Of a stretch of 64,000 nucleotides of DNA, positions 26,389-41,839 are shown piece by piece. Origin of the DNA: an uncultured Oleispira sp. (GTDB taxonomy: Bacteria; Pseudomonadota; Gammaproteobacteria; Pseudomonadales; Oceanobacteraceae); NCBI GenBank assembly GCA_963933055.1, contig CAWVSY010000012.1, positions 4,194-68,193 on the forward strand, written 5' to 3'. Every line of letters begins with the position of its first letter. The stretch's first letter is position 1. The position numbers were made by a program, and so were the translations under genes. Under the pieces are notes generated by a model. That model made no database searches. It had not been told where the DNA came from and saw only the letters and a list, made by a program, of their open reading frames with translations.

Positions 26389-28338
26389 GTGCGTGATATG
26401 AAAATAGAACAGCAGGCTGAATGGGATATCGAGCGAGCGCAAGATACCTACGGCATAAAAAATTGGGGAAATGGGTATTTTGATATCAGCCCTGACGGTG
26501 AAGTAGTCATTAAAAATCCCCAGGACTCTTTTTCCGAGCAGTTTTCTGGCTTGTCTTTGCTGGAAGTTATTGAAGGCTTGCGAGATCGTGACCTGCACAT
26601 GCCCGCGTTATTACGTATTGAAAATATAATCGATCACAGCATCAGTAATTTGAATGACTCTTTCAGAAAAATTATAGAGCGTCTCGATTACCAGGGTTCG
26701 TATCGAGGTGTATTTCCTATTAAAGTGAATCAGCAAGCGCAAATCGTTGAGGAGATCGCTCGGTTTGGGGAGCGCTATGGTTATGGTTTTGAGGTGGGCA
26801 GTAAGCCTGAAATGATCGCCGCTTTATCAACGCTCGGTAATAGCAGTGATCAGATGTTGATTTGCAATGGTTACAAAGATCAGGAGTTTATTGATCTGGC
26901 CTTGCAAGCGGTCAAGTTGGGTACTCGTTGTTTTGTGGTGATTGAGGCCCTGTCCGAGCTGCCAATTATTGTTGAGCGCAGCAAAGCTTTAGGCATCGAA
27001 CCTTTGATTGGTGTACGAGCAAAAATGACGACTAAGGTTGGTGGTCATTGGAATTCAACCAGTGGTGATCGCAGTGTCTTTGGTTTGTCAGCCAGTCAAA
27101 TTATTCAGGTTGTCGATGTACTGAGAGACAATGATATGTTGCATTGTTTGCAATTGTTGCATTGCCACTTGGGTTCTCAAATTCCTAATATTCGTGATAT
27201 TCGTGGTGGTGTAAGCGAAGCCTGTCGTTATTACGCAGACTTGTGTCGCGAAGGTGCCGCGATGAATTATATCGATTTGGGTGGTGGGTTGGCGGTAGAT
27301 TATACGGGGGCGCATTCACAAGAAAGCCAAAGTCGAAATTATTCTTTGGATGAATATTGTGAAGATGTGGTCGAAACCGTTATGTCGACGCTCGACGGTT
27401 ATGGTATCAGCCATCCTACGATTGTTACGGAATCCGGTCGTGCCACCGTCGCGTATTCATCTATATTATTGTTTAACATCTTAGATGTCGCGCGTTTTGA
27501 GCCTGTCGAGATAAGGACGTCTAGTGATGAAGGGCATGAGTTACTCGATAATTTGCGCAGCATCTTTGATTACTTAAAACCAGGTCGGGTGCAGGAGTGT
27601 TTTAATGATGCCCACTATTATCGTGATGAAGTGCGTGAGTTGTTTAAGCGCGGTCAGGTAGGTTTGCGTACCCGTGCTGAAGCAGAAAACCTGTTTTTAA
27701 AAGTGCTGCGAGATATTAAATCTTTATTACCTGAACTGGATCAAATTCCTAAAGAGCTAGAGGGATTCGATGAATCTTTAGCCGATATTTATTATGGCAA
27801 TTTCAGTCTGTTTCAATCTTTGCCAGATAGCTGGGCCATTGATCAGATGTTCCCTGTGATGCCGGTTCATCGCTTAAACGAAGAACCTGATCGTCGTGCT
27901 GTATTAGCGGATATTACCTGTGATTGCGACGGAAAAATTGATCGTTTTATTGCTACCGATCGCGAATATGCTCCGACCTTACCCGTGCATTCATTAAAAG
28001 AATCTGAAGAATATTATATGGGTGTCTTCCTTGTGGGTGCCTATCAGGAGACCCTTGGGGATTTACACAATTTGTTTGGTGATACCAACGTGGCCAGCAT
28101 TCGTTTAAACGAAGGGGGGGGTTACGAATTTGTTAAAGAAATTCACGGCGATACCATCGAAGACGTTTTGGGTTATGTGGAATACCAGCCTTGGGAAATG
28201 AAATTACGTTACCGCAATAAATTAGAAGCCGCCGTAAATGAAGGTCGCATCAGTGCTCGTGAACGCCAGCAAATGATGAATACTTTCAATGCCAGTATGC
28301 AAGGCTACACCTATTACGAAAAAGACCATGTGCTTTAA
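26389..28338 (+). CDS. speA: Biosynthetic arginine decarboxylase
   Basis: VFPIKVNQ PLP lysine, EVGSKPE, CNGYKD, HCHLGSQI, DLGGGL, ESGRA, DITCDCDG, GAYQETLGDLHNLFGDTN. Confidence 0.96.
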   Translation: MRDMKIEQQAEWDIERAQDTYGIKNWGNGYFDISPDGEVVIKNPQDSFSEQFSGLSLLEVIEGLRDRDLHMPALLRIENIIDHSISNLNDSFRKIIERLDYQGSYRGVFPIKVNQQAQIVEEIARFGERYGYGFEVGSKPEMIAALSTLGNSSDQMLICNGYKDQEFIDLALQAVKLGTRCFVVIEALSELPIIVERSKALGIEPLIGVRAKMTTKVGGHWNSTSGDRSVFGLSASQIIQVVDVLRDNDMLHCLQLLHCHLGSQIPNIRDIRGGVSEACRYYADLCREGAAMNYIDLGGGLAVDYTGAHSQESQSRNYSLDEYCEDVVETVMSTLDGYGISHPTIVTESGRATVAYSSILLFNILDVARFEPVEIRTSSDEGHELLDNLRSIFDYLKPGRVQECFNDAHYYRDEVRELFKRGQVGLRTRAEAENLFLKVLRDIKSLLPELDQIPKELEGFDESLADIYYGNFSLFQSLPDSWAIDQMFPVMPVHRLNEEPDRRAVLADITCDCDGKIDRFIATDREYAPTLPVHSLKESEEYYMGVFLVGAYQETLGDLHNLFGDTNVASIRLNEGGGYEFVKEIHGDTIEDVLGYVEYQPWEMKLRYRNKLEAAVNEGRISARERQQMMNTFNASMQGYTYYEKDHVL

Positions 28339-28383
28339 TTTTTTAAAGAAATAATTTAAGAGAAGCGTTTAGGGGAACCTGTT

Positions 28384-29592
28384 ATGAAAAAAATTATGAT
28401 TATTGGTGCTGGTGGCGTAGGTCAGGTTGTTGCCCATAAATGTGCTCAATTGCCGGAAGTGTTCAGTGACATTGTATTGGCCAGCCGTACTCAAAGTAAG
28501 TGTGATGATATCGCCAAGCAAATTAAGGCAAGGTATGGTGGCGACATTGAAACGGATCACGTTGATGCGGATAGTGTGTCTGATCTTGTGCGCTTATTTA
28601 AGAAGTACGATCCGTTCATGGTGATCAATGTGGCGCTGCCCTATCAGGATCTGACCATTATGGATGCCTGCTTAGAAATGAAAGTACACTATCTTGATAC
28701 GGCCAATTATGAGCCATTAGATACGGCAAAATTTGAGTACAAATGGCAATGGGAGTATCAGGATAAATTCAAACAAGCGGGCTTGATGGCGCTGTTAGGT
28801 TCAGGCTTTGATCCTGGTGCTACCAATATGTTTACGGCTTACGCTGCTAAGCATTATTTCGATGAGATCCATACCTTAGATATCATTGATGTTAATGGTG
28901 GCGATCATGGTTACCCATTTGCGACTAATTTCAATCCGGAAATAAATATTCGTGAAGTGACCGCTGAATGTCGCCATTGGGAAAACGGTGAGTTTATTAC
29001 AACACCTGCTATGTCGACTAATCAAGAATTTACCTGCCCCGATGGTATTGGCACTTACAATATTTACCGCATGTACCACGAAGAGTTGGAATCGTTAGCT
29101 AAACATTATCCTACGCTTAAGTGTGCACAATTCTGGATGAGCTTTGGTGATAGTTACCTTAAACACTTAGAGGTGCTAGGCAATGTGGGTATGACAGGTA
29201 TTGAACCTATTAATTTTAATGGACAGGAAATTATCCCACTTCAGTTTTTAAAAGAACTGCTGCCTGAACCCTCCACATTAGGCCCTCGTACAATAGGTAA
29301 AACCTGTATTGGCTGTGTTGTGACCGGTATTAAAAATGGTAAAGCGCGCACAGTGTATGTATACAATATCAAAGATCATCAGGATTGTTATGGTGAGGTG
29401 CAGTCACAGGCTATTTCTTATACCACCGCTGTGCCAGCCATGATCGGCGCGAAGATGATGATAGAAGGTCAATGGCTTAAGGAGGGCGTTTGGAATATGG
29501 AGCAGCTGGACCCAGATCCATTCATGGATGACATGAACAAATACGGCTTGCCGTTCAAGGTGATTGAAGAGCCAGGCTTCGATCTGATTTGA
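28384..29592 (+). CDS. Carboxy(nor)spermidine dehydrogenase, copy 1 (saccharopine dehydrogenase family)
   Basis: IIGAGGVGQVVAHKCAQ, YLDTANYEP, GSGFDPG, FATNFNPEINIRE, YHEELESL, SQAISYTTAVPA. Confidence 0.9.
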   Translation: MKKIMIIGAGGVGQVVAHKCAQLPEVFSDIVLASRTQSKCDDIAKQIKARYGGDIETDHVDADSVSDLVRLFKKYDPFMVINVALPYQDLTIMDACLEMKVHYLDTANYEPLDTAKFEYKWQWEYQDKFKQAGLMALLGSGFDPGATNMFTAYAAKHYFDEIHTLDIIDVNGGDHGYPFATNFNPEINIREVTAECRHWENGEFITTPAMSTNQEFTCPDGIGTYNIYRMYHEELESLAKHYPTLKCAQFWMSFGDSYLKHLEVLGNVGMTGIEPINFNGQEIIPLQFLKELLPEPSTLGPRTIGKTCIGCVVTGIKNGKARTVYVYNIKDHQDCYGEVQSQAISYTTAVPAMIGAKMMIEGQWLKEGVWNMEQLDPDPFMDDMNKYGLPFKVIEEPGFDLI

Positions 29593-29622
29593 TCATAATC
29601 TGACTGAATCATAAAAAGTACA

Positions 29623-30495
29623 ATGCACATGACGACATTACCGAGTCCTCGAATTCAGCTGAACTATGCGTCCCTTGACCTTTTAAACGATAAACGTTTT
29701 TCAACGCAAGTTCTAGGCTGGCTGAGTGCAGAAGAGCGAAAGCGTCACAAGAGCTTTGTGAGTCAGCAGCAGGCTAAGCAATATCTGTTAGCGAGGGCTT
29801 TATTGCGTAGTCAATTATCAAAACGAGTGCCGTGTGTATTGCCCCATGAATGGGTATTCGTCATTGATAATTCTGGTAAGCCAAGATTGGCGGATGGGTT
29901 TTCATATTTAAATCTGCACTTTAATTTATCACACAGTGAAGACCTAGTGGTATTGGCGCTGGGTGAAGAATTAGGTGAGGGGTTAGGTGAGGGGTTAGGT
30001 GAAGGATTGGATTTGGGCGTTGATGTTGAATGTATTCATCGTCCGATATTTAACATGGCCTTTGCTAAACGCTATTTCTCTGAAAGGGAATTGTCTGATC
30101 TGATGAGGCTGACTGAGTCGCAGAAAATTAAACGCATAGCTCAATTGTGGACGTTAAAAGAATCCTACCTGAAGGCCAGTGGTTTAGGCATAAGAATACC
30201 GCTCGCTAAGCTGGCTTTTTCTTTTAAGGGGCAAGGCGATCTGGGTCTTAGTATATCGCCTTCTTTGGCTGAAATTTTACCCGTAAAAAAAGGCAGTTTT
30301 ATCGCTTTATTTAGCGTGTGGTCAGATTACAGTTTGGCGTTAACCATAGGTACCGATAAAGAAATGGATGTCTCTGCTATAACATCTGCTATGACAATTA
30401 ATGAATGGGCTGGTTTGAACAGCCAGCTTTTGGGTTTGCCATACAAGCTGTTAAGAACTAAAACTGACCAAAAAATAAGTCGTAACGTTTCATAA
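29623..30495 (+). CDS. Sfp-type 4'-phosphopantetheinyl transferase
   Basis: SGKP, FNLSHS, GVDVE, WTLKESYLKASGLG. Confidence 0.92.
   Translation: MHMTTLPSPRIQLNYASLDLLNDKRFSTQVLGWLSAEERKRHKSFVSQQQAKQYLLARALLRSQLSKRVPCVLPHEWVFVIDNSGKPRLADGFSYLNLHFNLSHSEDLVVLALGEELGEGLGEGLGEGLDLGVDVECIHRPIFNMAFAKRYFSERELSDLMRLTESQKIKRIAQLWTLKESYLKASGLGIRIPLAKLAFSFKGQGDLGLSISPSLAEILPVKKGSFIALFSVWSDYSLALTIGTDKEMDVSAITSAMTINEWAGLNSQLLGLPYKLLRTKTDQKISRNVS
29959..30006 (+). repeat. 12-bp in-frame tandem repeat x4 (LGEE/LGEG) in the PPTase gene
   Basis: CTGGGTGAAGAA TTAGGTGAGGGG TTAGGTGAGGGG TTAGGTGAAGGA. Confidence 0.9.
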
Positions 30496-30545
30496 GATTA
30501 TTTATAAAATTTTATGAAATTTATTATAAAATATTTTGAGATATT

Positions 30546-31904
30546 ATGAATAAGAATCTAATCGATACCTCTCCTGATAGTGGACCTTTAGTAGCCACTT
30601 TTTTCCGTTTTGTTATTCCTTCTACATTGAGTTTGCTGGCTATTTCGACTGCCAGTGTCGTCGATGGTTTTTTTGTGGGAAATTATATTGGCGCAGAGGC
30701 ATTAGCGGCGGTTAATTTATTGATGCCGTACTTTGCCTTGTTATTTGGTGTGGCTCTGATGTTTGCCGTCGGAGGTTCAGTTAAAGCCAGTATTTATATC
30801 GGCGATAAAAAATACGCTTTAGCGTCATCTATTTTTAGTCAGGTTTTCTTTGTGATACTGGCCATGGCAGCGCTGGCGGTACCCCTGTCTCTTGTCTTTA
30901 GTGAGTATCTGTTTGCTGCTTTGGGGGCTACTCCTTCGTTATATCCCCTGATGCAGAGCTATTTTGAAGTTTTTTGTTTTGTAACGGTTGTGCAACTGAC
31001 CTGTCTGGTGATGTACTACTTTATTCGTGCAGATAACCGACCTGAGTTGGGTATGCGCGCATTGATGTTAGGTGCCTTTGTCAATGTTGCTCTTGATGCA
31101 CTTTTTATAGGCAATTTGGGGTGGGGTATTGAGGGAGCCGCTTGGGCGACCTTGATTGGGCAAGTGATTCAATTGATTTACATTTCAAGCTACTTTTTTT
31201 CTGGCCGCAATAGTTTGAAATTATCCTTTCCGATTTTTAAAATTAAACAATTGGGATTTATTGCCTTTAATGGCTTCTCTGAGTTCATAAATGAATTTTC
31301 CATTGGCTTAGTTATTTTGGTTTTTCATTGGGTTATTAGTCGGCAAAGTGGTATTGAAGGGATTGCAGCATTTAGCGTAGTGAATTATTTAATTTATATC
31401 AGCTTGATGGTGTATTACGGCATCATTGACGCGATGCATGTTCTATTAGGGCAGAATTTTGGGGCGCAGCGTCTTGATCGGGTTAAGGCGTTTATGCGGA
31501 TCGCGGCCCTATCGATTGCGATATTGAGCATTGTTCTGGTGGTTATACTGCATGTTTTTGAAGGCCCAATCATTGCCTTTTTTCTCGATGACGATGCAAA
31601 AAATGCTCAGCAATTAGCGCAGAATTTTTTACATGTTATCTGGCCTATCTTTTTGTTTAACGGTTTTAATGTGCTTATTTGTGCGTATCTCACGTCGGCA
31701 GAGCAAGCGATGCATTCCAGTATTATCGCTATGTTACGTTCATTAATTTTACCCATAAGTTTTGCATTGTTATTCAGCGCAATACTTCCAGGGATGAACT
31801 TTTTATACGCTGTACCTGTAGCAGAAGCCCTCGCATTTGTATTTGCTTTCATCTTTTATATTAATTATCGACCTGCATTATTGATTAAAAAATCACTTAA
31901 ATAA
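30546..31904 (+). CDS. MATE family efflux transporter (candidate siderophore or precursor exporter)
   Basis: 12-TM protein, VVDGFFVGNYIG.EALAAVN, NVALDALFI..LGWGIEGAAWAT, LLGQNFGA. Confidence 0.9.
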   Translation: MNKNLIDTSPDSGPLVATFFRFVIPSTLSLLAISTASVVDGFFVGNYIGAEALAAVNLLMPYFALLFGVALMFAVGGSVKASIYIGDKKYALASSIFSQVFFVILAMAALAVPLSLVFSEYLFAALGATPSLYPLMQSYFEVFCFVTVVQLTCLVMYYFIRADNRPELGMRALMLGAFVNVALDALFIGNLGWGIEGAAWATLIGQVIQLIYISSYFFSGRNSLKLSFPIFKIKQLGFIAFNGFSEFINEFSIGLVILVFHWVISRQSGIEGIAAFSVVNYLIYISLMVYYGIIDAMHVLLGQNFGAQRLDRVKAFMRIAALSIAILSIVLVVILHVFEGPIIAFFLDDDAKNAQQLAQNFLHVIWPIFLFNGFNVLICAYLTSAEQAMHSSIIAMLRSLILPISFALLFSAILPGMNFLYAVPVAEALAFVFAFIFYINYRPALLIKKSLK

Positions 31905-31949
31905 TTTTATTTTATAAAAATAATCATAAAACTTAATCTAAATGATAAA

Positions 31950-31968
31950 TAAAATGAGAATCAATCGT
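31950..31968. promoter_or_regulatory. Possible Fur box upstream of asbA
   Basis: TAAAATGAGAATCAATCGT, 12/19 to consensus, in an AT-rich intergenic region. Confidence 0.5.
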
Positions 31969-32019
31969 ATTTAGTGCGTATACTGCAATTCAAATGGAAA
32001 TTAGTGAGCTAGGGTTCAT

Positions 32020-33927
32020 ATGAAATTTGCAGCAAACAACACTGCTGAGTACGCATCTTTTCACGCTTTTATTAATGCTTACTTACGCGAAATTGACGCC
32101 GGAATTTGGAAGGTCAAAAGCCAATTTTTGGCGTTGTCAGATTTTCCTTATGAGTTAAAGGGTGCTGAGGTTTTAGAACTTCGTTTACCTGAAAGTCAGC
32201 AGTGCATTGTGATGGATGTAGCCTATAAATCTAAAGTAGGTCGTCATCATTTTCAGGGTGTGTATGTGCGCACTGAATACAATGAAGCGCATAGCAGTCC
32301 TTGGCAGTCAGCCGATATCATGTACTTGTTGATTGCTTTGGTTCGGCAGATTTACCAACGACAAAATACACTTTCTATGGGGAGTGAATTGTCAGAATCA
32401 ATAAGAATGAATGAAGTTGAGTTGCTAGGTCGTCTATTAGGCAGCTATCAAACTATGGCGTATTTTCTTAGCCAGCGAGCGGGTGATGCGAGATTAAACA
32501 GTCTTGATTTTATTAATTCCGAGCAATCCATTCTGTACGGACATTGGTTGCACCCAACACCAAAAAGTCAGCAGGGTATTACACCTTGGCAGCAAACGTT
32601 TTATTCCCCTGAATTATGCGGCCGCTTTAAATTACATTATTTCTCTGCTGATAAATCTTTAGCTAAAGAAGGCTCCTCATTAGCGCAAAGTACCAGTGAA
32701 ATTTTATATTCTGAAGTCAGTCGCTACGATTCGATAGAACTGGCGAATGACCATGTTCTCGTTCCGGTTCACCCATTACAGGCTGCTAACTTGTTATTGG
32801 AAAAATGGGTGAAAGATCTCATTGCAGAGGGACGCTTGAACTATCTTGGAGAAAAAGGGGCTGAATATACCGCTACTTCTTCTGTGCGTACGGTCGCTAA
32901 CGAAACGTCTGACTGGATGATAAAGCTATCGATTCCCGTAAAAATAACCAATTCATTACGTACTAATAAACGGCGTGAATTAGAAGACGGAATGGTGATT
33001 GAGAGCTATCTGAATCACATTGGCTTTCTGACGGATCGCCCTCAATTTAAAGTGGTTGATGATCCTGCGTACATCACCATCAATCATCCAAAAGATCATC
33101 AATTAGATTCCGGCTTTGAAGTTGTTTTGCGCCGTAATCCATTCATGAAAGAAAAAGGTCGAGGGGTATGTTCAATTCTTACTCTTGTACAAGACCCGAT
33201 TCCCAATGTCGATGGAACAGCTGGGTCTAGCTTGCTTAATAATATTATTTTAGATCTGGCTGCTAAAGAAAATCGATCGCTCGATCAGGTTGCACTCGAC
33301 TGGTTTGATCGTTATTGGCACTGTGCCATTGAGTCAATATTGTCACTTTATGATGGCTATGGCATCGCATTAGAGGCGCATCAGCAAAACAGTTTATTGG
33401 ATGTCTCAGCAGGTTACCCAAGCTGCTATTACTACCGAGATAATCAAGGATTTTATTTATCAGAACACTTCAAAGCGGAGCTAGCGGACGTTGGAAGTCA
33501 ATTAAATCTCACTAATATTTTTTATGATGATGAAAAAATTTTCACGGCCATTTCCTACTACGTCTTTGTCAATCAGTTATTTGCCGTGATCTACCGCTTA
33601 GGAGCCGATGGCCTAATAGACGAAGGCATCTTGGTGGAGCGCTGTCGTAAAAAATTATTAGAAATGCAAAAAAATATGCAAGGTATCGGTAAAGATTTTA
33701 TTAACTACATTCTGAACAGCGAACGACTGGATTATAAAACCAATCTTTTGGCTCGCGTAAATAATATTGATGAATTACAGGAAGGCATGGAGCACACCGT
33801 TTATTCAACAATCGTGAATCCCCTGTATTTAAAGTCAAATTCTAAATCTGTATCAACAGCAACATCAGTGCTGCAGAAAGATCTTATTAAAGCTGGCGAA
33901 GGTGAGCGAGGTGCAGTCTATGGATAG
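32020..33927 (+). CDS. asbA: NRPS-independent siderophore synthetase (IucA/IucC), petrobactin AsbA-like
   Basis: EQSILYGHWLHPTPKS, VPVHPLQA, TSSVRTV, KLSIPVKITNSLR, ALEAHQQNSL, YYRDNQG. Confidence 0.9.
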   Translation: MKFAANNTAEYASFHAFINAYLREIDAGIWKVKSQFLALSDFPYELKGAEVLELRLPESQQCIVMDVAYKSKVGRHHFQGVYVRTEYNEAHSSPWQSADIMYLLIALVRQIYQRQNTLSMGSELSESIRMNEVELLGRLLGSYQTMAYFLSQRAGDARLNSLDFINSEQSILYGHWLHPTPKSQQGITPWQQTFYSPELCGRFKLHYFSADKSLAKEGSSLAQSTSEILYSEVSRYDSIELANDHVLVPVHPLQAANLLLEKWVKDLIAEGRLNYLGEKGAEYTATSSVRTVANETSDWMIKLSIPVKITNSLRTNKRRELEDGMVIESYLNHIGFLTDRPQFKVVDDPAYITINHPKDHQLDSGFEVVLRRNPFMKEKGRGVCSILTLVQDPIPNVDGTAGSSLLNNIILDLAAKENRSLDQVALDWFDRYWHCAIESILSLYDGYGIALEAHQQNSLLDVSAGYPSCYYYRDNQGFYLSEHFKAELADVGSQLNLTNIFYDDEKIFTAISYYVFVNQLFAVIYRLGADGLIDEGILVERCRKKLLEMQKNMQGIGKDFINYILNSERLDYKTNLLARVNNIDELQEGMEHTVYSTIVNPLYLKSNSKSVSTATSVLQKDLIKAGEGERGAVYG

Positions 33928-35897: not shown

Positions 35898-37163
35898 ATG
35901 ATTTATATCAATGATGAACACTACGATAAAAATTATTTTGAGCAGTGTTACCAGAAGTTCAATCAGCATGACGTTCTAGGGAACGGCCAGGGTAAGCGCA
36001 TCACAGCTTGTATCAGCGATGCGGCCGTATGGATTGCGTTGTGTCTGTATGCTCGTGATCACGGAATATCGGTATTTCCTTTGCCAGCGGGTACTCCAGA
36101 AGAAGCATTACGCAGAAGAGCACAACTCAGTAGTAGTCACTACCAAGTGATGGCCGCTTCGATGGCGGAGCTGCTGACAAATATTGAAAAAATAAGTGAT
36201 CACGAAGATGACGTTGAACCTGTATTAGTGCAAATGAGCTCAGGCACAACAGGCGAGCCAAAGTGTATTAATCGCTCTTGGCTGAGTATTGATATCGAAT
36301 TGCAAAACTACATTGAGCACTTTACTGATTTGGCGGAAATGACCGCAGTCGTCGCATGTCCAGTGAATCATTCTTATGGTTTGATCTGCGGTATTTTAGC
36401 CAGTATTAAACGGGGTTCAGAGCCCGTGATTATTACTAACTTTAACCCTAAATATATTATTAAAAAGGTGCGTGAAACAACGACCCCTATCTTATATTCA
36501 TCCCCAGCATTGATCACTACGATCACCATGATGGTAAAAGCGGATCAGCCTATTCATGCCATTATGACGTCTGGCACCTTGATGCAGGCGACCTGGTTAG
36601 AGCAAGCCGCTAATAAATGTGAAAAATTGTATCAGCAATATGGCTGTTCGGAAGTAGGTTGTATCTCTTTGGGTGGAGATATTAAGTCTATTCATGATCA
36701 GGGGATGGTATTACCTCATCTTACTGTTAAGTCTGGATCTTCGGCAGAAGAACCACAAGAAATCATAGTGGCTATACAAGCTAGTACTACAGAAAATAAT
36801 ATTCGTGTTTCAACTCGCGATTTAGGTTTTCTGGATGCCAATAACCGTCTGCATTTTATTTCTCGCATCGATGAAATGATTAATGTGTCAGGACTTAATG
36901 TCTATCCCGCAGAAGTAGAAAAAGTGGTTATGGATATGCCAAATGTTAGCGATGCCGTGGTATTTAAAAAAAGCCACGCATTTGGTAATGACCAAGTATG
37001 TTTGCAGTTTATCGCTGAGCAAGAGATTGCTAACGAAGATATTCGCAGCTGGTGCAGCAAATATTTAAATAAATATCAGGTACCCCTACAGATTGCTCAA
37101 GTTGAAAAAATTGAGCGCTTACCTAACGGCAAGGTTAGTCGTAAAGCACTAGCGCTTGCATAA
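35898..37163 (+). CDS. asbC: 3,4-dihydroxybenzoate-AMP ligase, AsbC-like
   Basis: MSSGTTGEPK adenylation motif, QQYGCSEVG, TRDLG, NVSGLNVYP, LPNGKVSR; position in asb cluster. Confidence 0.88.
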   Translation: MIYINDEHYDKNYFEQCYQKFNQHDVLGNGQGKRITACISDAAVWIALCLYARDHGISVFPLPAGTPEEALRRRAQLSSSHYQVMAASMAELLTNIEKISDHEDDVEPVLVQMSSGTTGEPKCINRSWLSIDIELQNYIEHFTDLAEMTAVVACPVNHSYGLICGILASIKRGSEPVIITNFNPKYIIKKVRETTTPILYSSPALITTITMMVKADQPIHAIMTSGTLMQATWLEQAANKCEKLYQQYGCSEVGCISLGGDIKSIHDQGMVLPHLTVKSGSSAEEPQEIIVAIQASTTENNIRVSTRDLGFLDANNRLHFISRIDEMINVSGLNVYPAEVEKVVMDMPNVSDAVVFKKSHAFGNDQVCLQFIAEQEIANEDIRSWCSKYLNKYQVPLQIAQVEKIERLPNGKVSRKALALA

Positions 37164-37225: not shown

Positions 37226-38521
37226 ATGATGACAAAAGAACAGATTGTTGAATCCCTATTCAAAGTATTAAGCGAGAACATGTCTCTGTTGAATATGGAT
37301 AAATTCCACAGCGATGCCCGTTTATTAGAAGACCTAGCATTAGATTCATCCATGGTATTGCACATGCTGATGTTGCTCGAAGTGGAGTATGAAATGGCGA
37401 TGGATGAAAATGCCTTAATGAATGAAGATTTTGAAACCGTACGAGCGGTTGCCAATATTTTATATGCAGGCCAAAACCTACCAAAGCATGAAAAGGGTCT
37501 TGAAGTTTATGAAGACGTTAAGATCCATTGTGTTGCTAGTAATTTGGCCGAAGTCGTAAAGCGTTTTCCACAATTAGATCATCGCATTTTGTATTTTGCT
37601 GTGTCCGACGCAAATGCCTGTATCGATGATCGTTTTGTTTTGACCTACCATAACGAAAATATCAATCACGATATTTTCTTTAACTGGTACGAGCGCCTTT
37701 ATGGAATGCCGATTCGTCCTTGGTATGACAAGCAAGCGAGCAAAGAACAGAACCTAGCGATATTAGAAACTCTGGTGCAGAAGCGAGCGCCTGGCCAGCA
37801 TATTTTAGTGATGTTAGACATGTTCCATTTACCTGAACGGGAGAATGAATTCAATAAAGATCCTTTTCCTCATTATGTCATGTTGGGACCGACCAATAAT
37901 CCTGATCTTTGGTTTATGTATGACCCAGATTATCGTTGGGAAGGTGTATTTAACAAAGATCGAATTTTAAACGCAGTGGCTCAGCCAACCGTATCCGGTG
38001 GTTATGTGTTTTCTGAACAAGGCGCGAGAGCAACTCCGGTTGAAGAAGTTATCGCTTTTTTTGACGCCTCTGTCGTGCCAGATGCTAATCCCGTTACGGA
38101 TATGATTCGCGCAATCATCACTGCTCACATTAACGGTGAAGATAAAAATGGCGAGCCGTTACCGCTAGAAAATTTAATCAAAGCGGTAGAAGAAATACCG
38201 GTTATGTCACCGCGTAAATACGCCTATGAACATGGCTTTGCATTTTTCTGGCGTGAGCTGGAGCTGCCAGAGCAAGAGTTTGACGATTGGTGTGATGTGA
38301 TTGATGAGTTAGCAAAAACCTACAAGCTGATTCAATTTAATGCCATGAAATTAGCGGTGACAAAAAAAGAAGCCTTTGCTGAAAAATTATTCCAGTTATT
38401 AGATCAGCAAGACGAAAGAGAATTCAAACTTAAGCAACGTTTAATTGAAGTGAAAGATAGTTGGGCAAAAACCATGCTCGAGCCGTCTGATACTCAGCAA
38501 CTAGAAGGGGCCTGTCTGTGA
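37226..38521 (+). CDS. asbDE: Fused aryl carrier protein (AsbD) plus AsbE-like amide ligase
   Basis: N-terminal about 85 aa carrier with LALDSS phosphopantetheine serine, then KIHCV...LDMFHLPERENEFNKDPFPHYVML typical of AsbE; single open frame. Confidence 0.82.
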   Translation: MMTKEQIVESLFKVLSENMSLLNMDKFHSDARLLEDLALDSSMVLHMLMLLEVEYEMAMDENALMNEDFETVRAVANILYAGQNLPKHEKGLEVYEDVKIHCVASNLAEVVKRFPQLDHRILYFAVSDANACIDDRFVLTYHNENINHDIFFNWYERLYGMPIRPWYDKQASKEQNLAILETLVQKRAPGQHILVMLDMFHLPERENEFNKDPFPHYVMLGPTNNPDLWFMYDPDYRWEGVFNKDRILNAVAQPTVSGGYVFSEQGARATPVEEVIAFFDASVVPDANPVTDMIRAIITAHINGEDKNGEPLPLENLIKAVEEIPVMSPRKYAYEHGFAFFWRELELPEQEFDDWCDVIDELAKTYKLIQFNAMKLAVTKKEAFAEKLFQLLDQQDEREFKLKQRLIEVKDSWAKTMLEPSDTQQLEGACL

Positions 38522-39381
38522 AATATTCCGTTTGCACCATTTCTTTCCGCCATCAGTTGATATCACTGGAACGCATTGCCAATTGGGCGAAAGCGCATCA
38601 GTTTGACGCGATTGAGCTGTGGGGCGTGCATGCCAAGAACCTTCGTCAATCACCAGATTTCACTCTAGAGAGTTTGGTCGAAAAAGGTTTGTCAGTATCA
38701 ATGGTCAGTGATTATTTGCCTTTAGACGGAGATCTAAAGGTTGCGTTAGAAGGCGCTAAATCACTGTGCACGATTACACGTTCTTGGGGGGCTAAAAAAT
38801 TACGTACTTTTTCTGGCAACAAACCCAGTGCAGGCATGAGTATGAGAGAACGAGCAGCCTGTACTAAGCGCTTGCGCGAATATTGCAAAATAGCAGCGGA
38901 CTATGGGGTTTATCTTATTGTTGAAACGCACCCCAATACATTAGCGGATACCTTGGCATCGACTCTTCAGTTAATTGAAGAAGTGAATCACCCGGCATTG
39001 CGTATTAATTTTGATGTGATCCATGTTTGGGAAATGGGCAGTGATCCGATCGTTGCACTCGATCAGCTCGCGCCTTTAATAGAGCACATGCATTTTAAAA
39101 ACATCACTCAACGTAATCTTTTGAATGTTTTTAATCCCGGTAATGTTTATGCCCCCGCAGGCACTCGTGAAGGTATGACGCCAATTTTCAACGGCGAATA
39201 CGATTTCAAGCAGTTCTTAGATTATTTGATGAAAGAGTCCGCTATACCGTGGCAAAACATGGATGCTTCGTTGGAGTGGTTCGGACCGGATGTCTTCACT
39301 ACTCTGGATAACGATCGTAAAGAACTCGCGAAACTGGAATCACACTTTATCCAACAGTCCCAGCCAGAGCTAACGATATGA
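38518..39381 (+). CDS. asbF: 3-dehydroshikimate dehydratase (3,4-DHB synthase)
   Basis: MKYSVCTISFRHQLIS...IELWGVHA, VETHPNTLADT, NFDVIHVWE, HMHFKNI; nearly identical start to Bacillus AsbF. Confidence 0.93.
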   Translation: MKYSVCTISFRHQLISLERIANWAKAHQFDAIELWGVHAKNLRQSPDFTLESLVEKGLSVSMVSDYLPLDGDLKVALEGAKSLCTITRSWGAKKLRTFSGNKPSAGMSMRERAACTKRLREYCKIAADYGVYLIVETHPNTLADTLASTLQLIEEVNHPALRINFDVIHVWEMGSDPIVALDQLAPLIEHMHFKNITQRNLLNVFNPGNVYAPAGTREGMTPIFNGEYDFKQFLDYLMKESAIPWQNMDASLEWFGPDVFTTLDNDRKELAKLESHFIQQSQPELTI

Positions 39382-40535
39382 AAATGAGCACACCTTATTA
39401 CCTAATTGATGAGACTCGCATGTTAAAGGCGATGGAACGTATCGCTTATGTGCGTGAGTGTAGTGGTGCCAAAAGTGTTCTCGCATTGAAATGTTTTTCT
39501 AGCTGGTGCGTATTTGATTTTATGAAGGACTATATGGCTGGAACAACGAGTAGTAGTTTATATGAAGCGCGTTTAGGTTATGAGAAATTTGGTGGCGAAA
39601 CCCATGGTTACAGTGTTGCTTATAGCGAAGATGAAATTCCTGAACTCGTTGAGTACTGCGACAAAGTTATTTTCAATTCGTTGAATCAATTAGAGCAATA
39701 CAAAGCGCAGGTAAAAGAAAAAGGCCGTTCAATTGGGCTGCGTATAAATCCAGAAGTAGGCCATTCCGAATACGGTTTAAGTGATACGGTTGCAAAATAT
39801 TCACGCCTCGGGGTACGTCACGATTTGTTGCCTGACAATATCACCGATGAAATTGAGGGTGCTATGTTTCACATGAATTGTGAAAACGATGACTTCACAA
39901 GCCTTAGTCAACAGCTGGATGAAATTGAACGCCGTTTTTCTACGATTCTGCCTAAGTTGAACTGGCTTAGTTTAGGCGGTGGTATTGCCTTTACCCGTGA
40001 TGGTTATGCATTGAATGCTTTATGTGGCCGCCTCAAATTATTAGCTGAAACTTATGACTTGCAAGTATACCTAGAACCAGGTGAAGCATCGGTCACTCAA
40101 TCCACTTCCCTTGTCGTTAAGGTATTAGACAAGGTAGACAACCAATTATCAACGTTGATCGTCGACGCCGGTGTTGAAACTCATTTGCTGGATGTATTGG
40201 TTTACAAGTTTACGCCTGAACTAGAAGGTGCAGAACCAATCGCAGAAGAAAATATAGAAGCCGCATTACAACAAGCGTTACAAGAAGGTAAGTCTGTTTA
40301 TCGTATTAGTGGACGTACCTGTTTGGCGGGTGATGTATTCGGAACCTATATTTTCAATCAAAAAGTTGAAATAGGGGATGAACTGAGATTCACCGATGTC
40401 GCTGGTTATTCCATGGTGAAGAAAAATTTCTTCAACGGAATCAAAATGCCCGCCATTTGCCATAAAAATATTCATGGAGAAACCCGCGTCATTCGCGAGT
40501 TTGATTACGAAGATTTTCGAGACTTTTTGTCTTAA
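39378..40535 (+). CDS. nspC: Carboxy(nor)spermidine decarboxylase
   Basis: TPYYLIDE, LALKCFS, SSLYEARLG, LSLGGG, YLEPGEA, TCLAGD, YSMVKKNFFNG. Confidence 0.93.
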   Translation: MKMSTPYYLIDETRMLKAMERIAYVRECSGAKSVLALKCFSSWCVFDFMKDYMAGTTSSSLYEARLGYEKFGGETHGYSVAYSEDEIPELVEYCDKVIFNSLNQLEQYKAQVKEKGRSIGLRINPEVGHSEYGLSDTVAKYSRLGVRHDLLPDNITDEIEGAMFHMNCENDDFTSLSQQLDEIERRFSTILPKLNWLSLGGGIAFTRDGYALNALCGRLKLLAETYDLQVYLEPGEASVTQSTSLVVKVLDKVDNQLSTLIVDAGVETHLLDVLVYKFTPELEGAEPIAEENIEAALQQALQEGKSVYRISGRTCLAGDVFGTYIFNQKVEIGDELRFTDVAGYSMVKKNFFNGIKMPAICHKNIHGETRVIREFDYEDFRDFLS

Positions 40536-40576
40536 CTTTTAGTCTGAGCTTTTTAAAAATTTGGGGGGAATATGTT

Positions 40577-41839
40577 ATGAAAAAGAACGTACTCATTATT
40601 GGCGCAGGTGCCGTAGGCGCAGTGGTTGCTCACAAGTGCGCACAGAGTAGCGATGTATTCGCATCCGTTTGCTTAGCTTCTAAAAATGTTGCTAAATGCG
40701 ATGCCATTATCGATTCAGTGAATAGAAAGAATTATCAAACGGTAGCAGGCTTTCAGTTCTATAGTCGAGAAGTGAACGCCGACAATACCGACGACTTGGT
40801 GACGTTGATTCGATCAACCGAAAGCCAGATCGTTATTAATGTCTGCACCGTCTTTGTCAATATGAATATTTTGGATGCTTGCTTAGAAACCGGTGCCGCT
40901 TATATCGATACGGCGGTTCATGAAGATTATAGTGTGATGAATGCACCGTATCCGTGGTATGCCAACTACGAATGGAAAAAGCGTGAATTATGCAAAAAGA
41001 AGGGGGTGACGGCTATTTTAGGCAGCGGTTTTGATCCTGGTGTCGTGAACGCTTATTGCGCTTATGCACAAAAACACGAATTCGATTCCATCGAAAGCAT
41101 CGATATTATGGATGTGAATGATGGCGACCATGGTCATTATTTCTCAACCAATTTTGACCCTGAAGTGAACCTGCGGGAAATCATTGAAGATGCGGGTTGC
41201 TTAGAAGATGGTCAATGGCGCACTTATCCACATCATAGCCGTTCGATGAATTACGATTTTCCTGAAGTGGGTGAGCACAAGTTGTATCTGATGGGACACG
41301 ACGAAGTGCATTCGTTATCGAAAAATATTCCTGGGGTAGAAACTGTACGCTTCTGGATGGGCTTTGGTGATCATTACTTAAAGTGTTTAGAAGTCTTCGA
41401 AAAAGTGGGGTTATTGAATCACGAAACGGTGACAACCAATAATGGTGAAAAAGTGATACCTCTACATACCTTGAAAGCTTGCTTGCCTGACCCTGCGAGT
41501 CTAGCGCCAAAATACAAAGGGAAAACCTGCATTGGCACATTGATTAAAGGTAAGCGCGATGGTCAGGATAAAGAACTGCTTGTTTATAACATCTGTGATC
41601 ATGAAGTAACGTATGCTGATATTGATTCTCAGGCCATCGCCTTCACCGCGGGTGTACCTCCGGTTGCCGCGGCTAAGCTGATTGCAAGTGGCGAATGGGA
41701 TGTTAAAGGCATGGTAAATGTAGAAGAGTTAGACCCCATTCCGTTCTTTGAGCGCTTAGCTGAAATGGGTATTTCTACCGAGGTTTACGACGTAAGTGCC
41801 GATAAAGACAGCCCTGCCAACAGAGTATTGTACGCTTAA
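40577..41839 (+). CDS. Carboxy(nor)spermidine dehydrogenase, copy 2
   Basis: IIGAGAVGAVVAHKCAQ, YIDTAVHED, GSGFDPG, FSTNFDPEVNLRE, GHDEVHSL, SQAIAFTAGVP. Confidence 0.9.
   Translation: MKKNVLIIGAGAVGAVVAHKCAQSSDVFASVCLASKNVAKCDAIIDSVNRKNYQTVAGFQFYSREVNADNTDDLVTLIRSTESQIVINVCTVFVNMNILDACLETGAAYIDTAVHEDYSVMNAPYPWYANYEWKKRELCKKKGVTAILGSGFDPGVVNAYCAYAQKHEFDSIESIDIMDVNDGDHGHYFSTNFDPEVNLREIIEDAGCLEDGQWRTYPHHSRSMNYDFPEVGEHKLYLMGHDEVHSLSKNIPGVETVRFWMGFGDHYLKCLEVFEKVGLLNHETVTTNNGEKVIPLHTLKACLPDPASLAPKYKGKTCIGTLIKGKRDGQDKELLVYNICDHEVTYADIDSQAIAFTAGVPPVAAAKLIASGEWDVKGMVNVEELDPIPFFERLAEMGISTEVYDVSADKDSPANRVLYA

What the first reader, a model, noticed from the sequence alone, without database searches (positions are those of the whole stretch)
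26389..41839. Petrobactin-type cluster with built-in polyamine supply and two distinct carboxyspermidine dehydrogenases but no agmatinase
Seen: speA-CASDH1-PPTase-MATE-asbABC(DE)F-nspC-CASDH2, all co-oriented; the two dehydrogenases differ at conserved positions (DTANYEP/YHEELESL versus DTAVHED/GHDEVHSL); no speB or aguAB in the window. Established: petrobactin is citrate plus 2 spermidine plus 2 3,4-DHB (B. anthracis asb); CANSDH/CANSDC make (nor)spermidine in Vibrio; Synechocystis uses a related dehydrogenase directly on agmatine (carboxyaminopropylagmatine route). Inference: CASDH1, coupled to SpeA, may act on agmatine while CASDH2 acts on putrescine, diaminopropane or a triamine, so the product could be a petrobactin analogue with a non-standard polyamine arm, or spermidine may be made via aminopropylagmatine.
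Basis: partly seen in the sequence, partly recalled or inferred. Interest (0 to 1): 0.72.

Follow-up and report, generated by a model that had tools for sequence, protein, structure and literature searches.

The report
Petrobactin cluster with two spermidine routes
An Oleispira-like marine bacterium has a petrobactin-type iron-scavenging gene cluster carrying its own polyamine genes, including one dehydrogenase predicted to use agmatine and one predicted to use putrescine; this genome alone has lost the two genes that would supply putrescine.

Summary
Window 26389-41839 (+) reads SpeA, dehydrogenase 1, PPTase, MATE, AsbA, AsbB, AsbC, AsbD-E fusion, AsbF, decarboxylase (CASDC), dehydrogenase 2.

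- **Dehydrogenase 1** has the N105/E107/E229 signature of agmatine-using CAPADH enzymes. It is 83% identical to a housekeeping copy in a speA-CAPADH-CAPADC locus on contig C73.
- **The only ureohydrolase in the genome** lies near that locus. Its orthologue in Bermanella closes a speA-CAPADH-CAPADC-ureohydrolase operon, so it is probably an aminopropylagmatine ureohydrolase, not a plain agmatinase.
- **Dehydrogenase 2** (V105/E107/D229) is sister to housekeeping I/E/D putrescine-type CASDHs. With its decarboxylase it is a conserved module of asb-type clusters in several phyla.
- **New here:** nine related clusters carry agmatine-deiminase-like and carbamoylputrescine-amidase-like genes between the HGSNAT-like and SIP genes; a tenth keeps only the amidase. 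This window has a clean 2,051-bp gap there.

The ancestral cluster therefore encoded two parallel routes from arginine to spermidine. Here only the agmatine-first route is complete, and dehydrogenase 2 has no evident putrescine supply.

A non-standard siderophore is neither supported nor excluded. This is a new variant of known systems, of moderate interest.

The parts
18212..20593 (+). TonB-dependent receptor, probably the ferric-siderophore receptor. A Fur-box-like site lies upstream at 18156-18174.
   Evidence: Plug and TonB_dep_Rec_b-barrel domains. 16/19 match to the Fur consensus.
20683..22185 (-). PepSY_TM membrane protein, a common neighbour of siderophore loci
   Evidence: PF03929, 168 bits. 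Also present next to the asb-type clusters L017 and L018.
22896..24071 (+). DUF418/YeiB-like membrane protein. A Fur-box-like site lies at 22898-22916, overlapping its predicted GTG start codon.
   Evidence: PF04235. 16/19 match to the Fur consensus.
24085..24915 (-). SIP-type siderophore-interacting ferric reductase
   Evidence: PF08021 and PF04954.
24952..24981 (.). Junction where relatives carry a 2,051-bp segment encoding an agmatine-deiminase-like gene and an N-carbamoylputrescine-amidase-like gene. Both are absent here.
   Evidence: blastn against same-genus genome G043: window 24982 matches L030 6719 and window 24951 matches L030 8771. Both genes are present in L011, L013, L022, L030, L032 and L033; L012 and L014 show only the deiminase-like gene because the locus ends there; L015 (Bermanella) shows only the amidase-like gene. 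tblastn finds no deiminase anywhere in the own genome.
24978..26276 (-). HGSNAT/DUF1624-like membrane acyltransferase, divergent from speA. In relatives it heads the operon acyltransferase, deiminase-like, amidase-like, SIP.
   Evidence: PF07786. Conserved in all five loci L011-L015. Gene order in L030.
26302..26320 (.). Fur-box-like site in the divergent promoter region, overlapping a promoter-like site upstream of speA
   Evidence: 14/19 match to the Fur consensus. TTATCA-17-GATAAT at 26310-26338. A weak, consensus-level match only.
26389..28338 (+). Cluster copy of biosynthetic arginine decarboxylase (SpeA), which makes agmatine
   Evidence: NF003763 810 bits and TIGR01273 714 bits, both over their cut-offs. 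68% identical to the housekeeping SpeA on C73.
28384..29592 (+). Dehydrogenase 1: predicted carboxyaminopropylagmatine dehydrogenase (CAPADH-type, agmatine-using)
   Evidence: DTANYE and YHEE give N105/E107/H228/E229 in the alignment to 8DEB. Top PDB hits are 4INA, 4RL6 and 8DEB at 529-551 bits. 83% identical to the housekeeping copy. Falls in the CAPADH clade of the tree.
29623..30495 (+). Sfp/HetI-type phosphopantetheinyl transferase, for the AsbD carrier domain
   Evidence: PF01648 and PF22624.
30546..31904 (+). MATE efflux transporter, probably the siderophore exporter
   Evidence: PF01554. Conserved next to the dehydrogenase 2 module in L017-L019 and L021.
32020..33927 (+). AsbA-like type A NIS synthetase (citrate plus polyamine)
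   Evidence: IucA_IucC and FhuF domains. Best PDB hit is IucA, 169 bits.
33902..35854 (+). AsbB-like type C NIS synthetase
   Evidence: Best PDB hit is 3TO3, petrobactin biosynthesis protein AsbB, E 7e-96 over the full length.
35898..37163 (+). AsbC-like 3,4-dihydroxybenzoate adenylating enzyme
   Evidence: NF006167 497.5 bits, just under its 513-bit cut-off. AMP-binding domains present.
37226..38521 (+). AsbD-AsbE fusion: aryl carrier domain plus DUF6005 transferase
   Evidence: NF005798 (AsbD) matches residues 2-83. PF19468 DUF6005, 452 bits, matches residues 97-425.
38518..39381 (+). AsbF, the 3-dehydroshikimate dehydratase that makes 3,4-dihydroxybenzoate
   Evidence: Only PDB hit is 3DX5 (AsbF), E 4.5e-71 over residues 1-270.
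39378..40535 (+). Carboxy(nor)spermidine-type decarboxylase (CASDC), the only decarboxylase of this kind in the cluster
   Evidence: TIGR01047 nspC 419 bits against a cut-off of 409. 35% identical to the housekeeping decarboxylase. 48-61% identical (tblastn/blastp) to the partner decarboxylases of the dehydrogenase 2 clade.
40577..41839 (+). Dehydrogenase 2: CASDH-type, with V105/E107/D229; predicted to use putrescine
   Evidence: Alignment to 8DEB. V-x-E plus GHDE is kept in 116 of 120 relatives at 59% identity or more. Sister to housekeeping DTAIHEDP/GHDE enzymes. dN/dS 0.032 against G043.

Best explanation
This is an iron-regulated petrobactin-type (asb) siderophore cluster that carries its own spermidine supply.

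**Ancestral cluster.** As kept in Oleispira, Bacterioplanoides and a second family, the cluster encodes two parallel routes from arginine to spermidine. Both start from cluster SpeA and share one decarboxylase.
1. Agmatine-first route: agmatine plus aspartate semialdehyde is condensed by dehydrogenase 1 (CAPADH-type) to carboxyaminopropylagmatine. The decarboxylase turns this into aminopropylagmatine, and removal of the guanidino group gives spermidine.
2. Putrescine route: the deiminase-like and amidase-like enzymes convert agmatine to putrescine. Dehydrogenase 2 (CASDH-type) makes carboxyspermidine, and the same decarboxylase gives spermidine.

**This genome.** The deiminase/amidase pair is missing. 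Only route 1 is complete. Its last step is done in trans by the single housekeeping ureohydrolase on contig C73, which is predicted to be an aminopropylagmatine ureohydrolase. Dehydrogenase 2 is intact but has no evident putrescine source. It would depend on a side activity of that ureohydrolase on agmatine, on imported putrescine, or on a secondary activity towards spermidine.

**Downstream.** AsbA to AsbF then assemble citrate, two spermidines and two 3,4-dihydroxybenzoates into petrobactin or a close analogue.

**Shown versus inferred.** Shown: gene content, motifs, phylogeny, synteny and the gap. Inferred: every substrate assignment and the identity of the product.
For: **Cluster identity.** AsbB and AsbF have their best solved relatives in B. 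anthracis AsbB (3TO3, E 7e-96) and AsbF (3DX5, E 4.5e-71). The AsbC, AsbD and DUF6005 (AsbE) models also hit.

**Dehydrogenase 1.**
- It has N105/E107/H228/E229 in the alignment to 8DEB.
- This is the agmatine signature proposed in PMC13683441. [quoted passage not shown] Xi et al. (PMC10599626) showed the same for S. pneumoniae SPD_0812 (4RL6).
- It is 83% identical to the housekeeping copy in speA-CAPADH-CAPADC on C73.

**Ureohydrolase.**
- It is the only PF00491 hit in the genome.
- Its best PDB hit is T. volcanium 3PZL, which Xi et al. call an aminopropylagmatine ureohydrolase.
- It shares DAHxDxR with 3PZL.
- Its 71%-identical orthologues in genus g4 (Bermanella) close a four-gene speA-CAPADH-CAPADC-ureohydrolase operon.

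**Dehydrogenase 2.**
- It has V105/E107/D229, conserved across its clade.
- It is sister to housekeeping CASDC-CASDH pairs with the canonical putrescine signature I/E/D.
- The CASDC-dehydrogenase 2 module sits inside asb-type clusters of other phyla.

**Other routes absent from the genome (99.95% complete).** No agmatine deiminase, no ornithine or lysine decarboxylase, no diaminobutyrate decarboxylase, no AdoMet decarboxylase.

**Relatives.**
- They carry deiminase-like and amidase-like genes in the cluster. The window has a clean 2,051-bp gap there.
- Clusters L011 and L013 lack dehydrogenase 1 but keep SpeA, deiminase, amidase, decarboxylase and dehydrogenase 2. That is a self-sufficient putrescine route.

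**Selection and published enzymology.**
- Both dehydrogenases are under strong purifying selection: dN/dS 0.056 and 0.032.
- Li et al. 2025 (PMC11999265) showed that the dehydrogenase, not the decarboxylase, sets substrate choice. One shared decarboxylase is therefore plausible.
Against: - No enzyme here has been assayed.
- The specificity motif is itself a docking-based hypothesis in its source paper.
- Dehydrogenase 2 has V, not the I of the tested putrescine enzymes. No member of its V/E/D clade has been characterised.
- The cluster deiminase-like and amidase-like proteins of relatives score well below the AguA and AguB equivalog cut-offs: 207-214 bits against 382, and 287-302 against 410. 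They might act on aminopropylagmatine rather than agmatine. That would leave dehydrogenase 2 without putrescine in those genomes too.
- Retention of both dehydrogenases in several genera and in a Myxococcota cluster could mean they are not merely redundant.
- The siderophore of this lineage has not been described in the literature I could search.
Confidence: 0.55

Rival explanations
1. Plain redundancy. Both dehydrogenases use putrescine, the C73 ureohydrolase is an ordinary agmatinase (SpeB), and the cluster simply boosts the classical route arginine, agmatine, putrescine, carboxyspermidine, spermidine for canonical petrobactin.
For: - The ureohydrolase passes the TIGR01230 agmatinase model: 220 bits against a cut-off of 174.
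- Earlier papers reported putrescine activity for B. fragilis and C. leptum dehydrogenases of the same type (background in PMC13683441).
Against: - The same enzymes were re-measured and are far more efficient with agmatine.
- Dehydrogenase 1 has the full N/E/E signature.
- The ureohydrolase orthologue is the fourth gene of a speA-CAPADH-CAPADC-ureohydrolase operon in Bermanella. It also shares the arginine that Xi et al. say is conserved only in aminopropylagmatine ureohydrolases.
- The two dehydrogenases sit in different deep clades.
Confidence: 0.1
2. Dehydrogenase 2 and its decarboxylase are a siderophore-dedicated aminopropylating pair that does not act on free putrescine. It might act on spermidine, giving a spermine or thermospermine arm. 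It might instead act on an acylated diamine intermediate such as citryl-putrescine or DHB-putrescine. The product would then be a petrobactin analogue, or the pair would fix the orientation of the arm.
For: - The module lies between asbF and the MATE or second synthetase gene in clusters from several phyla.
- The asb-linked clade has a near-fixed V105 where housekeeping sisters have I.
- It has the lowest dN/dS in the cluster.
- In this genome no putrescine route is evident.
- Tested I/E/D enzymes also aminopropylate spermidine (PMC11999265).
- Orientation isomers such as roseobactin exist.
Against: - I to V is a conservative change.
- Clusters L011 and L013 pair this module with SpeA, a deiminase-like gene and an amidase-like gene, which fits a simple putrescine supply.
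- Precursor-supply genes inside siderophore clusters are common; for example, Microbulbifer AsbG, AsbH and AsbI.
- There is no chemical data.
Confidence: 0.12
3. Dehydrogenase 2 is a Vibrio-type carboxynorspermidine dehydrogenase, and the siderophore carries norspermidine.
For: - V at position 105 and D at position 229 are shared with the Vibrio enzyme.
- NF043000 (carboxynorspermidine synthase) scores it higher than dehydrogenase 1: 478 against 413 bits.
Against: - Position 107 is E, not V.
- Both scores are far below the 800-bit cut-off.
- The genome has no group II (PF00282) decarboxylase. Its only alanine-racemase-fold decarboxylases are two SpeA and LysA, so no known route to 1,3-diaminopropane was found.
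- The Vibrio-like representative P0005 (DTSVGV/AHDE) branches outside the clade of dehydrogenase 2.
Confidence: 0.03

Closest known systems
Petrobactin (asbABCDEF) biosynthesis of Bacillus anthracis; petrobactin producers Marinobacter nauticus and Alteromonas macleodii
   Same: Same six catalytic functions: type A and type C NIS synthetases, aryl adenylating enzyme, carrier protein, AsbE-family transferase and 3-dehydroshikimate dehydratase. AsbB and AsbF are the best solved relatives.
   Different: - AsbD and AsbE are fused.
- A PPTase, a MATE exporter and five polyamine genes are inside the cluster.
- PMC13573596 calls the inclusion of polyamine genes unique to its Microbulbifer strain among the petrobactin producers it compared.
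- The product here is unknown.
Microbulbifer sp. CNSA002 asb cluster with AsbG/H/I (arginine decarboxylase, agmatine deiminase, carbamoylputrescine amidase), and the Bacterioplanoides sp. SCSIO 12839 cluster noted in the same paper (PMC13573596, 2026)
   Same: Petrobactin-type cluster with embedded arginine-to-polyamine genes. That paper already noted co-association of carboxy(nor)spermidine dehydrogenase and decarboxylase genes with such clusters.
   Different: - In the passages I read, that paper does not distinguish two dehydrogenase types or an agmatine-first branch.
- The present genome lacks the deiminase/amidase pair, which the Oleispira, Bacterioplanoides and G448 clusters examined here keep (the Bermanella locus shows only the amidase).
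Carboxyaminopropylagmatine (CAPA) pathway: Synechocystis Slr0049/Sll0873/Sll0228 (Xi et al. 2023, PMC10599626); B. fragilis and C. leptum CAPADH (PMC13683441); D. desulfuricans and H. thermophila (PMC11999265)
   Same: - Dehydrogenase 1 and its housekeeping paralogue share the N/E/E signature.
- They are adjacent to an arginine decarboxylase.
- A decarboxylase and an APAUH-like ureohydrolase are present.
- A four-gene operon version exists in the sister genus.
   Different: A copy of the first two genes has been recruited into a siderophore cluster. There it has no dedicated decarboxylase of its own type and coexists with a putrescine-type dehydrogenase.
Classical carboxyspermidine route: A. 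tumefaciens, B. abortus and P. denitrificans CASDH/CASDC (I105/E107/D229); V. cholerae CANSDH (V/V/D)
   Same: Dehydrogenase 2 shares E107 and D229 and the decarboxylase-then-dehydrogenase gene pair. It groups with I/E/D housekeeping enzymes.
   Different: - It has V at position 105.
- It belongs to a clade found mostly inside asb-type clusters.
- No putrescine-forming enzyme is evident in this genome.

Membership tests
Petrobactin-type (asb) NIS siderophore cluster | AsbA-type and AsbB-type IucA/IucC synthetases | tested here: met
   Both have IucA_IucC plus FhuF domains. The AsbB homologue hits 3TO3 at E 7e-96. The AsbA homologue is IucA-like type A.
Petrobactin-type (asb) NIS siderophore cluster | The 3,4-dihydroxybenzoate branch: AsbC adenylating enzyme, AsbD carrier, AsbE transferase, AsbF dehydroshikimate dehydratase | tested here: met
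   - AsbC: NF006167, 497.5 bits (cut-off 513).
- AsbD: NF005798 hit.
- AsbE: DUF6005, 452 bits.
- AsbF: 3DX5, E 4.5e-71.
Petrobactin-type (asb) NIS siderophore cluster | The product is petrobactin: citrate, two spermidines and two 3,4-dihydroxybenzoates | not testable with these tools
   No chemistry is available, and the one paper naming both Oleispira and petrobactin concerns an unrelated Serratia genome.
CAPADH (agmatine-using dehydrogenase), for dehydrogenase 1 | N105, E107 and E229 next to catalytic H228 (B. fragilis numbering, PMC13683441) | tested here: met
   DTANYE and YHEE are aligned residue for residue to 8DEB.
CAPADH (agmatine-using dehydrogenase), for dehydrogenase 1 | Close homology to biochemically verified CAPADH enzymes | tested here: met
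   548 bits to 4RL6 (S. pneumoniae), 529 bits to 8DEB (B. fragilis), 474 bits to 8H4Z (H. pylori).
CAPADH (agmatine-using dehydrogenase), for dehydrogenase 1 | Genomic partners: arginine decarboxylase, a decarboxylase, and an enzyme that removes the guanidino group from aminopropylagmatine | tested here: met
   SpeA lies directly upstream. Two decarboxylases are in the genome. There is one APAUH-like ureohydrolase.
CAPADH (agmatine-using dehydrogenase), for dehydrogenase 1 | Kinetic preference for agmatine over putrescine | not testable with these tools
   Needs an enzyme assay.
CASDH (putrescine-using dehydrogenase), for dehydrogenase 2 | I105, E107 and D229 | tested here: inconclusive
   E107 and D229 are present. 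Position 105 is V, not I. The sister housekeeping enzymes have I.
CASDH (putrescine-using dehydrogenase), for dehydrogenase 2 | Adjacent carboxyspermidine decarboxylase | tested here: met
   The nspC-type gene ends 41 bp upstream. The pair is conserved in all relatives.
CASDH (putrescine-using dehydrogenase), for dehydrogenase 2 | A putrescine source in the same genome (ornithine decarboxylase, agmatinase, or deiminase plus amidase) | tested here: not met
   No ornithine decarboxylase of either fold, no agmatine deiminase, and only an APAUH-like ureohydrolase. Relatives do have deiminase-like and amidase-like genes in the cluster.
CANSDH (Vibrio diaminopropane-using dehydrogenase), for dehydrogenase 2 | V105, V107 and D229, plus diaminobutyrate aminotransferase and decarboxylase in the genome | tested here: not met
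   Position 107 is E. There is no PF00282 hit, and no alanine-racemase-fold decarboxylase other than two SpeA and LysA.
Aminopropylagmatine ureohydrolase (APAUH), for the C73 ureohydrolase | The arginine two residues after the metal-binding aspartate (R151 in Synechocystis), and clustering with CAPADH and CAPADC | tested here: met
   - DAHADLR aligns with DAHSDFR of 3PZL. That this arginine corresponds to R151 is inferred, because the Synechocystis sequence was not at hand.
- Orthologues 71% identical follow CAPADC directly in G009 and G023.
Aminopropylagmatine ureohydrolase (APAUH), for the C73 ureohydrolase | E60 equivalent, and specificity for aminopropylagmatine over agmatine | not testable with these tools
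Specificity needs an assay.

The most novel reading that the evidence does not exclude
The V105/E107/D229 dehydrogenase and its decarboxylase, embedded in asb-type clusters across phyla, may be an uncharacterised siderophore-dedicated aminopropylation module. Its true substrate would not be free putrescine but spermidine or an acylated amine intermediate. The clusters would then make a petrobactin analogue, or control the orientation of the polyamine arm by building it on the scaffold. This genome, which has lost the putrescine-forming genes but keeps the module under strong constraint, would be the natural test case.
Probability: 0.12. Interest if true: 0.8.

Novelty: new variant of a known kind. 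Interest (0 to 1): 0.5.

Why it matters
- **A side-by-side test of a new model.** A 2026 structural model proposes three residues that decide whether this enzyme family takes agmatine, putrescine or diaminopropane. This cluster puts an N/E/E enzyme and a V/E/D enzyme in one operon with a single shared decarboxylase. It is a compact natural system for testing the model.
- **A first handle on an uncharacterised clade.** No member of the V/E/D clade that travels with petrobactin-type clusters has been studied.
[quoted passage not shown] These bacteria have wired both known aspartate-semialdehyde-dependent spermidine routes into the cluster, and single lineages prune one branch. That bears on how precursor supply limits siderophore output in iron-poor seawater.
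- **No new chemistry demonstrated.** If the enzymes behave as predicted, this is an elegant but expected combination of known parts.

Tried and rejected
- **Norspermidine or cadaverine arm.** Rejected, because no diaminobutyrate or lysine decarboxylase of either fold is present.
- **SAM-dependent spermidine synthesis.** Rejected. There is no AdoMet decarboxylase. The only Spermine_synth hits are two weak ones of 34-36 bits in small methyltransferase-like ORFs.
- **Third alanine-racemase-fold decarboxylase (C39) as an ornithine decarboxylase.** Rejected; it is LysA, 512 bits against a cut-off of 298.
- **Dehydrogenase 1 as a recent duplication private to this genome.** Rejected. The in-cluster copies of three genera form one clade with 100/99 support.
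- **Decay of dehydrogenase 2 after loss of the putrescine genes.** No sign of it; the gene is intact and dN/dS is 0.032. That value averages over both lineages, so it cannot show recent relaxation.
- **Named anchors for the tree (A. tumefaciens, V. cholerae, Synechocystis).** Their sequences could not be obtained. The listing of cluster members gave no organism names, and the look-up of encoding contigs had no record for the Spongiibacter protein. I used motif classes and gene context instead.
- **The search of protein representatives.** It did not return dehydrogenase 2's own 50% cluster; the best full-length hit was 45% identical. The search for homologous proteins recovered the clade.
- **One literature query** ('carboxyspermidine dehydrogenase' or 'paralog') was too broad and useless.
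I could check neither the gap junction in raw reads nor expression.

Full report
**1. Observation**

ORF listing and Pfam/NCBIfam scans confirm the order on the + strand:

| Window coordinates | Gene |
|---|---|
| 26389-28338 | SpeA |
| 28384-29592 | dehydrogenase 1 |
| 29623-30495 | PPTase |
| 30546-31904 | MATE |
| 32020-33927 | AsbA |
| 33902-35854 | AsbB |
| 35898-37163 | AsbC |
| 37226-38521 | AsbD-AsbE fusion |
| 38518-39381 | AsbF |
| 39378-40535 | nspC-type decarboxylase (CASDC) |
| 40577-41839 | dehydrogenase 2 |

- Gaps are short or the genes overlap. The one exception is 115 bp before asbA.
- The best solved relatives of the AsbB and AsbF homologues are B. anthracis AsbB (3TO3, E 7e-96) and AsbF (3DX5, E 4.5e-71).
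- The cluster sits in a wider iron-uptake island. This holds a TonB-dependent receptor, PepSY_TM, DUF418, a SIP reductase and an HGSNAT-like acyltransferase. Fur-box-like sites lie at 18156, 22898 and 26302. These are consensus-level matches only.
- The two dehydrogenases are 42% identical, and the quoted motifs are there.

**2. The rest of the genome**

The assembly is 3.55 Mb in 121 contigs and 99.95% complete. The closest named loci are Oleispira MAGs.

Contig C73 holds a second locus, speA-dehydrogenase 3-decarboxylase. An agmatinase-family gene lies 3.5 kb further on. That gene is the only PF00491 hit in the genome.

| Cluster gene | Identity to C73 counterpart |
|---|---|
| Dehydrogenase 1 | 83% (to dehydrogenase 3) |
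| SpeA | 68% |
| Dehydrogenase 2 | 43% (42% to dehydrogenase 1) |
| Decarboxylase | 35% |

Absent from the genome:
- agmatine deiminase (tblastn);
- aspartate-aminotransferase-fold ornithine or lysine decarboxylase;
- group II decarboxylase;
- AdoMet decarboxylase.

The only alanine-racemase-fold decarboxylases are the two SpeA and LysA. Agmatine is therefore the only primary amine precursor the genome can evidently make. Diaminopropane and cadaverine are not available by known routes.

**3. What the dehydrogenases are**

[quoted passage not shown] It proposed a recognition motif:

| Substrate | Position 105 | Position 107 | Position 229 |
|---|---|---|---|
| Agmatine | N | E | E |
| Putrescine | I | E | D |
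| Diaminopropane | V | V | D |

- **Dehydrogenases 1 and 3.** Aligned to the B. fragilis chain 8DEB, they read N, E and E next to H228. Their top solved relatives also include S. pneumoniae 4RL6 and H. pylori 8H4Z. Xi et al. identified 4RL6 as a CAPADH biochemically and synthesised the H. pylori gene as a CAPADH.
- **Dehydrogenase 2.** It reads V, E and D. Among 120 relatives of at least 59% identity, 116 keep V-x-E with GHDE.
- **Tree.** A maximum-likelihood tree splits the family into two groups. One is a CAPADH-type group containing dehydrogenases 1 and 3. The other (support 99/97) contains a Vibrio-like V/V/D representative, housekeeping I/E/D enzymes, and the asb-linked V/E/D clade of dehydrogenase 2.
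- **I/E/D sisters.** These are decarboxylase-dehydrogenase pairs among ordinary housekeeping genes (tig-clpX, pheT) in other families of the same order.

**4. The ureohydrolase**

- Its best solved relative is T. volcanium 3PZL, which Xi et al. propose is an aminopropylagmatine ureohydrolase.
- It shares the arginine in DAHxDxR. I take this to be the R151 that Xi et al. describe as conserved only in that subfamily.
- Thirteen of the 14 other genomes of the genus have this orthologue.
- In the sister genus (Bermanella, by contig-length match of L015 to G026:C19), orthologues 71% identical are the fourth gene of speA-CAPADH-CAPADC-ureohydrolase operons.
- The housekeeping route of this lineage is therefore very probably the agmatine-first (CAPA) pathway. 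The ureohydrolase is its last enzyme, not a putrescine-forming agmatinase.

**5. Comparative anatomy of the cluster**

Fifteen related asb-type clusters were examined.
- Five named loci: Oleispira, Bermanella and Bacterioplanoides MAGs.
- Six genome handles: same genus G043 and G055; genus g3 G006; family f2 G448; family f18 G230. Some handles are the same records as named loci.
- Four metagenomic or MAG contigs from other phyla, including Myxococcota.

*(a) The decarboxylase-dehydrogenase 2 pair is the constant polyamine element.* Outside the Oceanospirillales it sits between asbF and the MATE or second synthetase gene.

*(b) SpeA and dehydrogenase 1 are additions found in the Oceanospirillales.*
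- The Myxococcota cluster also carries an N/E/E dehydrogenase at its end.
- In-cluster copies of dehydrogenase 1 from three genera form one clade (100/99), sister to the Oleispira housekeeping enzymes. The copy is an old cluster member, not a private duplication.
- Two Oleispira clusters lack it (L011, L013). In L013 the housekeeping dehydrogenase-decarboxylase pair lies directly downstream.
- In genus g3 (Bacterioplanoides) the in-cluster copy is the only CAPADH-type gene. Those genomes have no ureohydrolase at all.

*(c) An agmatine-deiminase-like gene and an N-carbamoylputrescine-amidase-like gene lie beside the cluster in nearly all Oceanospirillales relatives.*
- They usually form an operon: HGSNAT-like, deiminase, amidase, SIP.
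- Six loci show both genes. L012 and L014 end inside the deiminase-like gene. The Bermanella locus L015 shows only the amidase-like gene.
- They score below the AguA and AguB equivalog cut-offs.
- In the window, exactly this 2,051-bp segment is missing. Synteny with the same-genus genome G043 breaks at window 24982/24951, leaving about 30 bp.
- The pair is present in the same genus, in a sister genus and in another family. Loss in this genome is therefore the parsimonious reading.

**6. Mechanism proposed**

The ancestral cluster can turn arginine into spermidine in two orders of steps with one shared decarboxylase.
- Agmatine-first: dehydrogenase 1, then the decarboxylase, then removal of the guanidino group.
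- Putrescine route: deiminase plus amidase, then dehydrogenase 2, then the decarboxylase.

Sharing one decarboxylase is plausible. Li et al. 2025 found that the dehydrogenase, not the decarboxylase, sets specificity.

L011-type clusters keep only the putrescine route in cis. The present genome keeps only the agmatine-first route, finished in trans by the housekeeping ureohydrolase.

Dehydrogenase 2 is intact here. Over the divergence from G043 it has the lowest dN/dS in the cluster (0.032; dehydrogenase 1 is 0.056). It has no evident putrescine source. Its current role in this strain is the main open point.

All substrate assignments are inferences from motif, phylogeny and context.

**7. What is already known, and what is not**

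- Already reported: polyamine genes inside petrobactin-type clusters, and the co-association of carboxy(nor)spermidine dehydrogenase and decarboxylase genes with them. This appeared in 2026 for Microbulbifer, with Bacterioplanoides singled out as having a full set (PMC13573596).
- Already known: the CAPA pathway (2023), its hybrid variants (2025) and the specificity model (2026).
- Not found in the passages I read:
  - the coexistence of an agmatine-type and a putrescine-type dehydrogenase sharing one decarboxylase in such a cluster;
  - the asb-linked V/E/D clade as a distinct, uncharacterised lineage;
  - the lineage-specific pruning of one branch.
- Verdict: a new variant of known systems.

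**8. Limits**

- No enzyme or product has been assayed.
- The motif model is explicitly a hypothesis in its source.
- Reference sequences from A. tumefaciens, V. cholerae and Synechocystis could not be brought in.

Noticed in passing
window 24978-26276 (-) and 22896-24071 (+); L030 5413-9592: The HGSNAT/DUF1624-like membrane acyltransferase is conserved next to speA in all relatives. There it heads an operon with the deiminase-like, amidase-like and SIP reductase genes. A DUF418 membrane protein flanks the island. Acylated petrobactins were recently reported in Microbulbifer (PMC13573596), so a role in siderophore or polyamine acylation or recycling is conceivable.
   Followed up: partly
L016 7160-11224 and L020 7055-11224 (Candidatus Electrothrix): A non-siderophore polyamine operon reads: small AdoMetDC-like gene, decarboxylase, then two tandem dehydrogenases of the dehydrogenase 2 clade. 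One is I/E/D (DTAIHEEP) and one is V/E/D (DTAVHEEV). This suggests the I and V forms are not equivalent.
   Followed up: partly
G005, G006, G008 against G004, G007 (genus g3, Bacterioplanoides); L027, L032: In this genus the only dehydrogenase and decarboxylase genes of this family lie inside the siderophore cluster. There is no ureohydrolase, and there are two agmatine-deiminase paralogues. Genomes without the cluster have no such dehydrogenase at all. The cluster may therefore be the sole spermidine source there.
   Followed up: partly
L015 2-2206 (Bermanella MAG = G026:C19): The amidase-like gene lies directly next to the HGSNAT-like gene with no deiminase-like gene between them. This may be another partial loss.
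   Followed up: no
L023 9598-11707 (G230:C37): In this asb cluster the dehydrogenase 2 orthologue has an internal TAA stop. The decarboxylase matches only over a short stretch. The polyamine module may be decaying in one lineage.
   Followed up: no
window 7403-8158 (+) and G000:C2:96476-97225: Two small ORFs give weak Spermine_synth hits of 34-36 bits. The genome has no AdoMet decarboxylase. They look like methyltransferase-fold proteins rather than spermidine synthases.
   Followed up: partly
window 31905-32019: The AT-rich 115-bp spacer before asbA contains AATGATAAATAAAATGAGAATCAAT, a second Fur-box-like stretch. This suggests an internal iron-regulated promoter for the asb genes.
   Followed up: no
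window 43303-46533 (-): Immediately downstream of the cluster is a 1,076-aa SF1 helicase with a nuclease-like domain (AAA_11/AAA_12, MTES_1575). It is weakly similar to anti-phage helicases and marks the start of a defence-type island.
   Followed up: no
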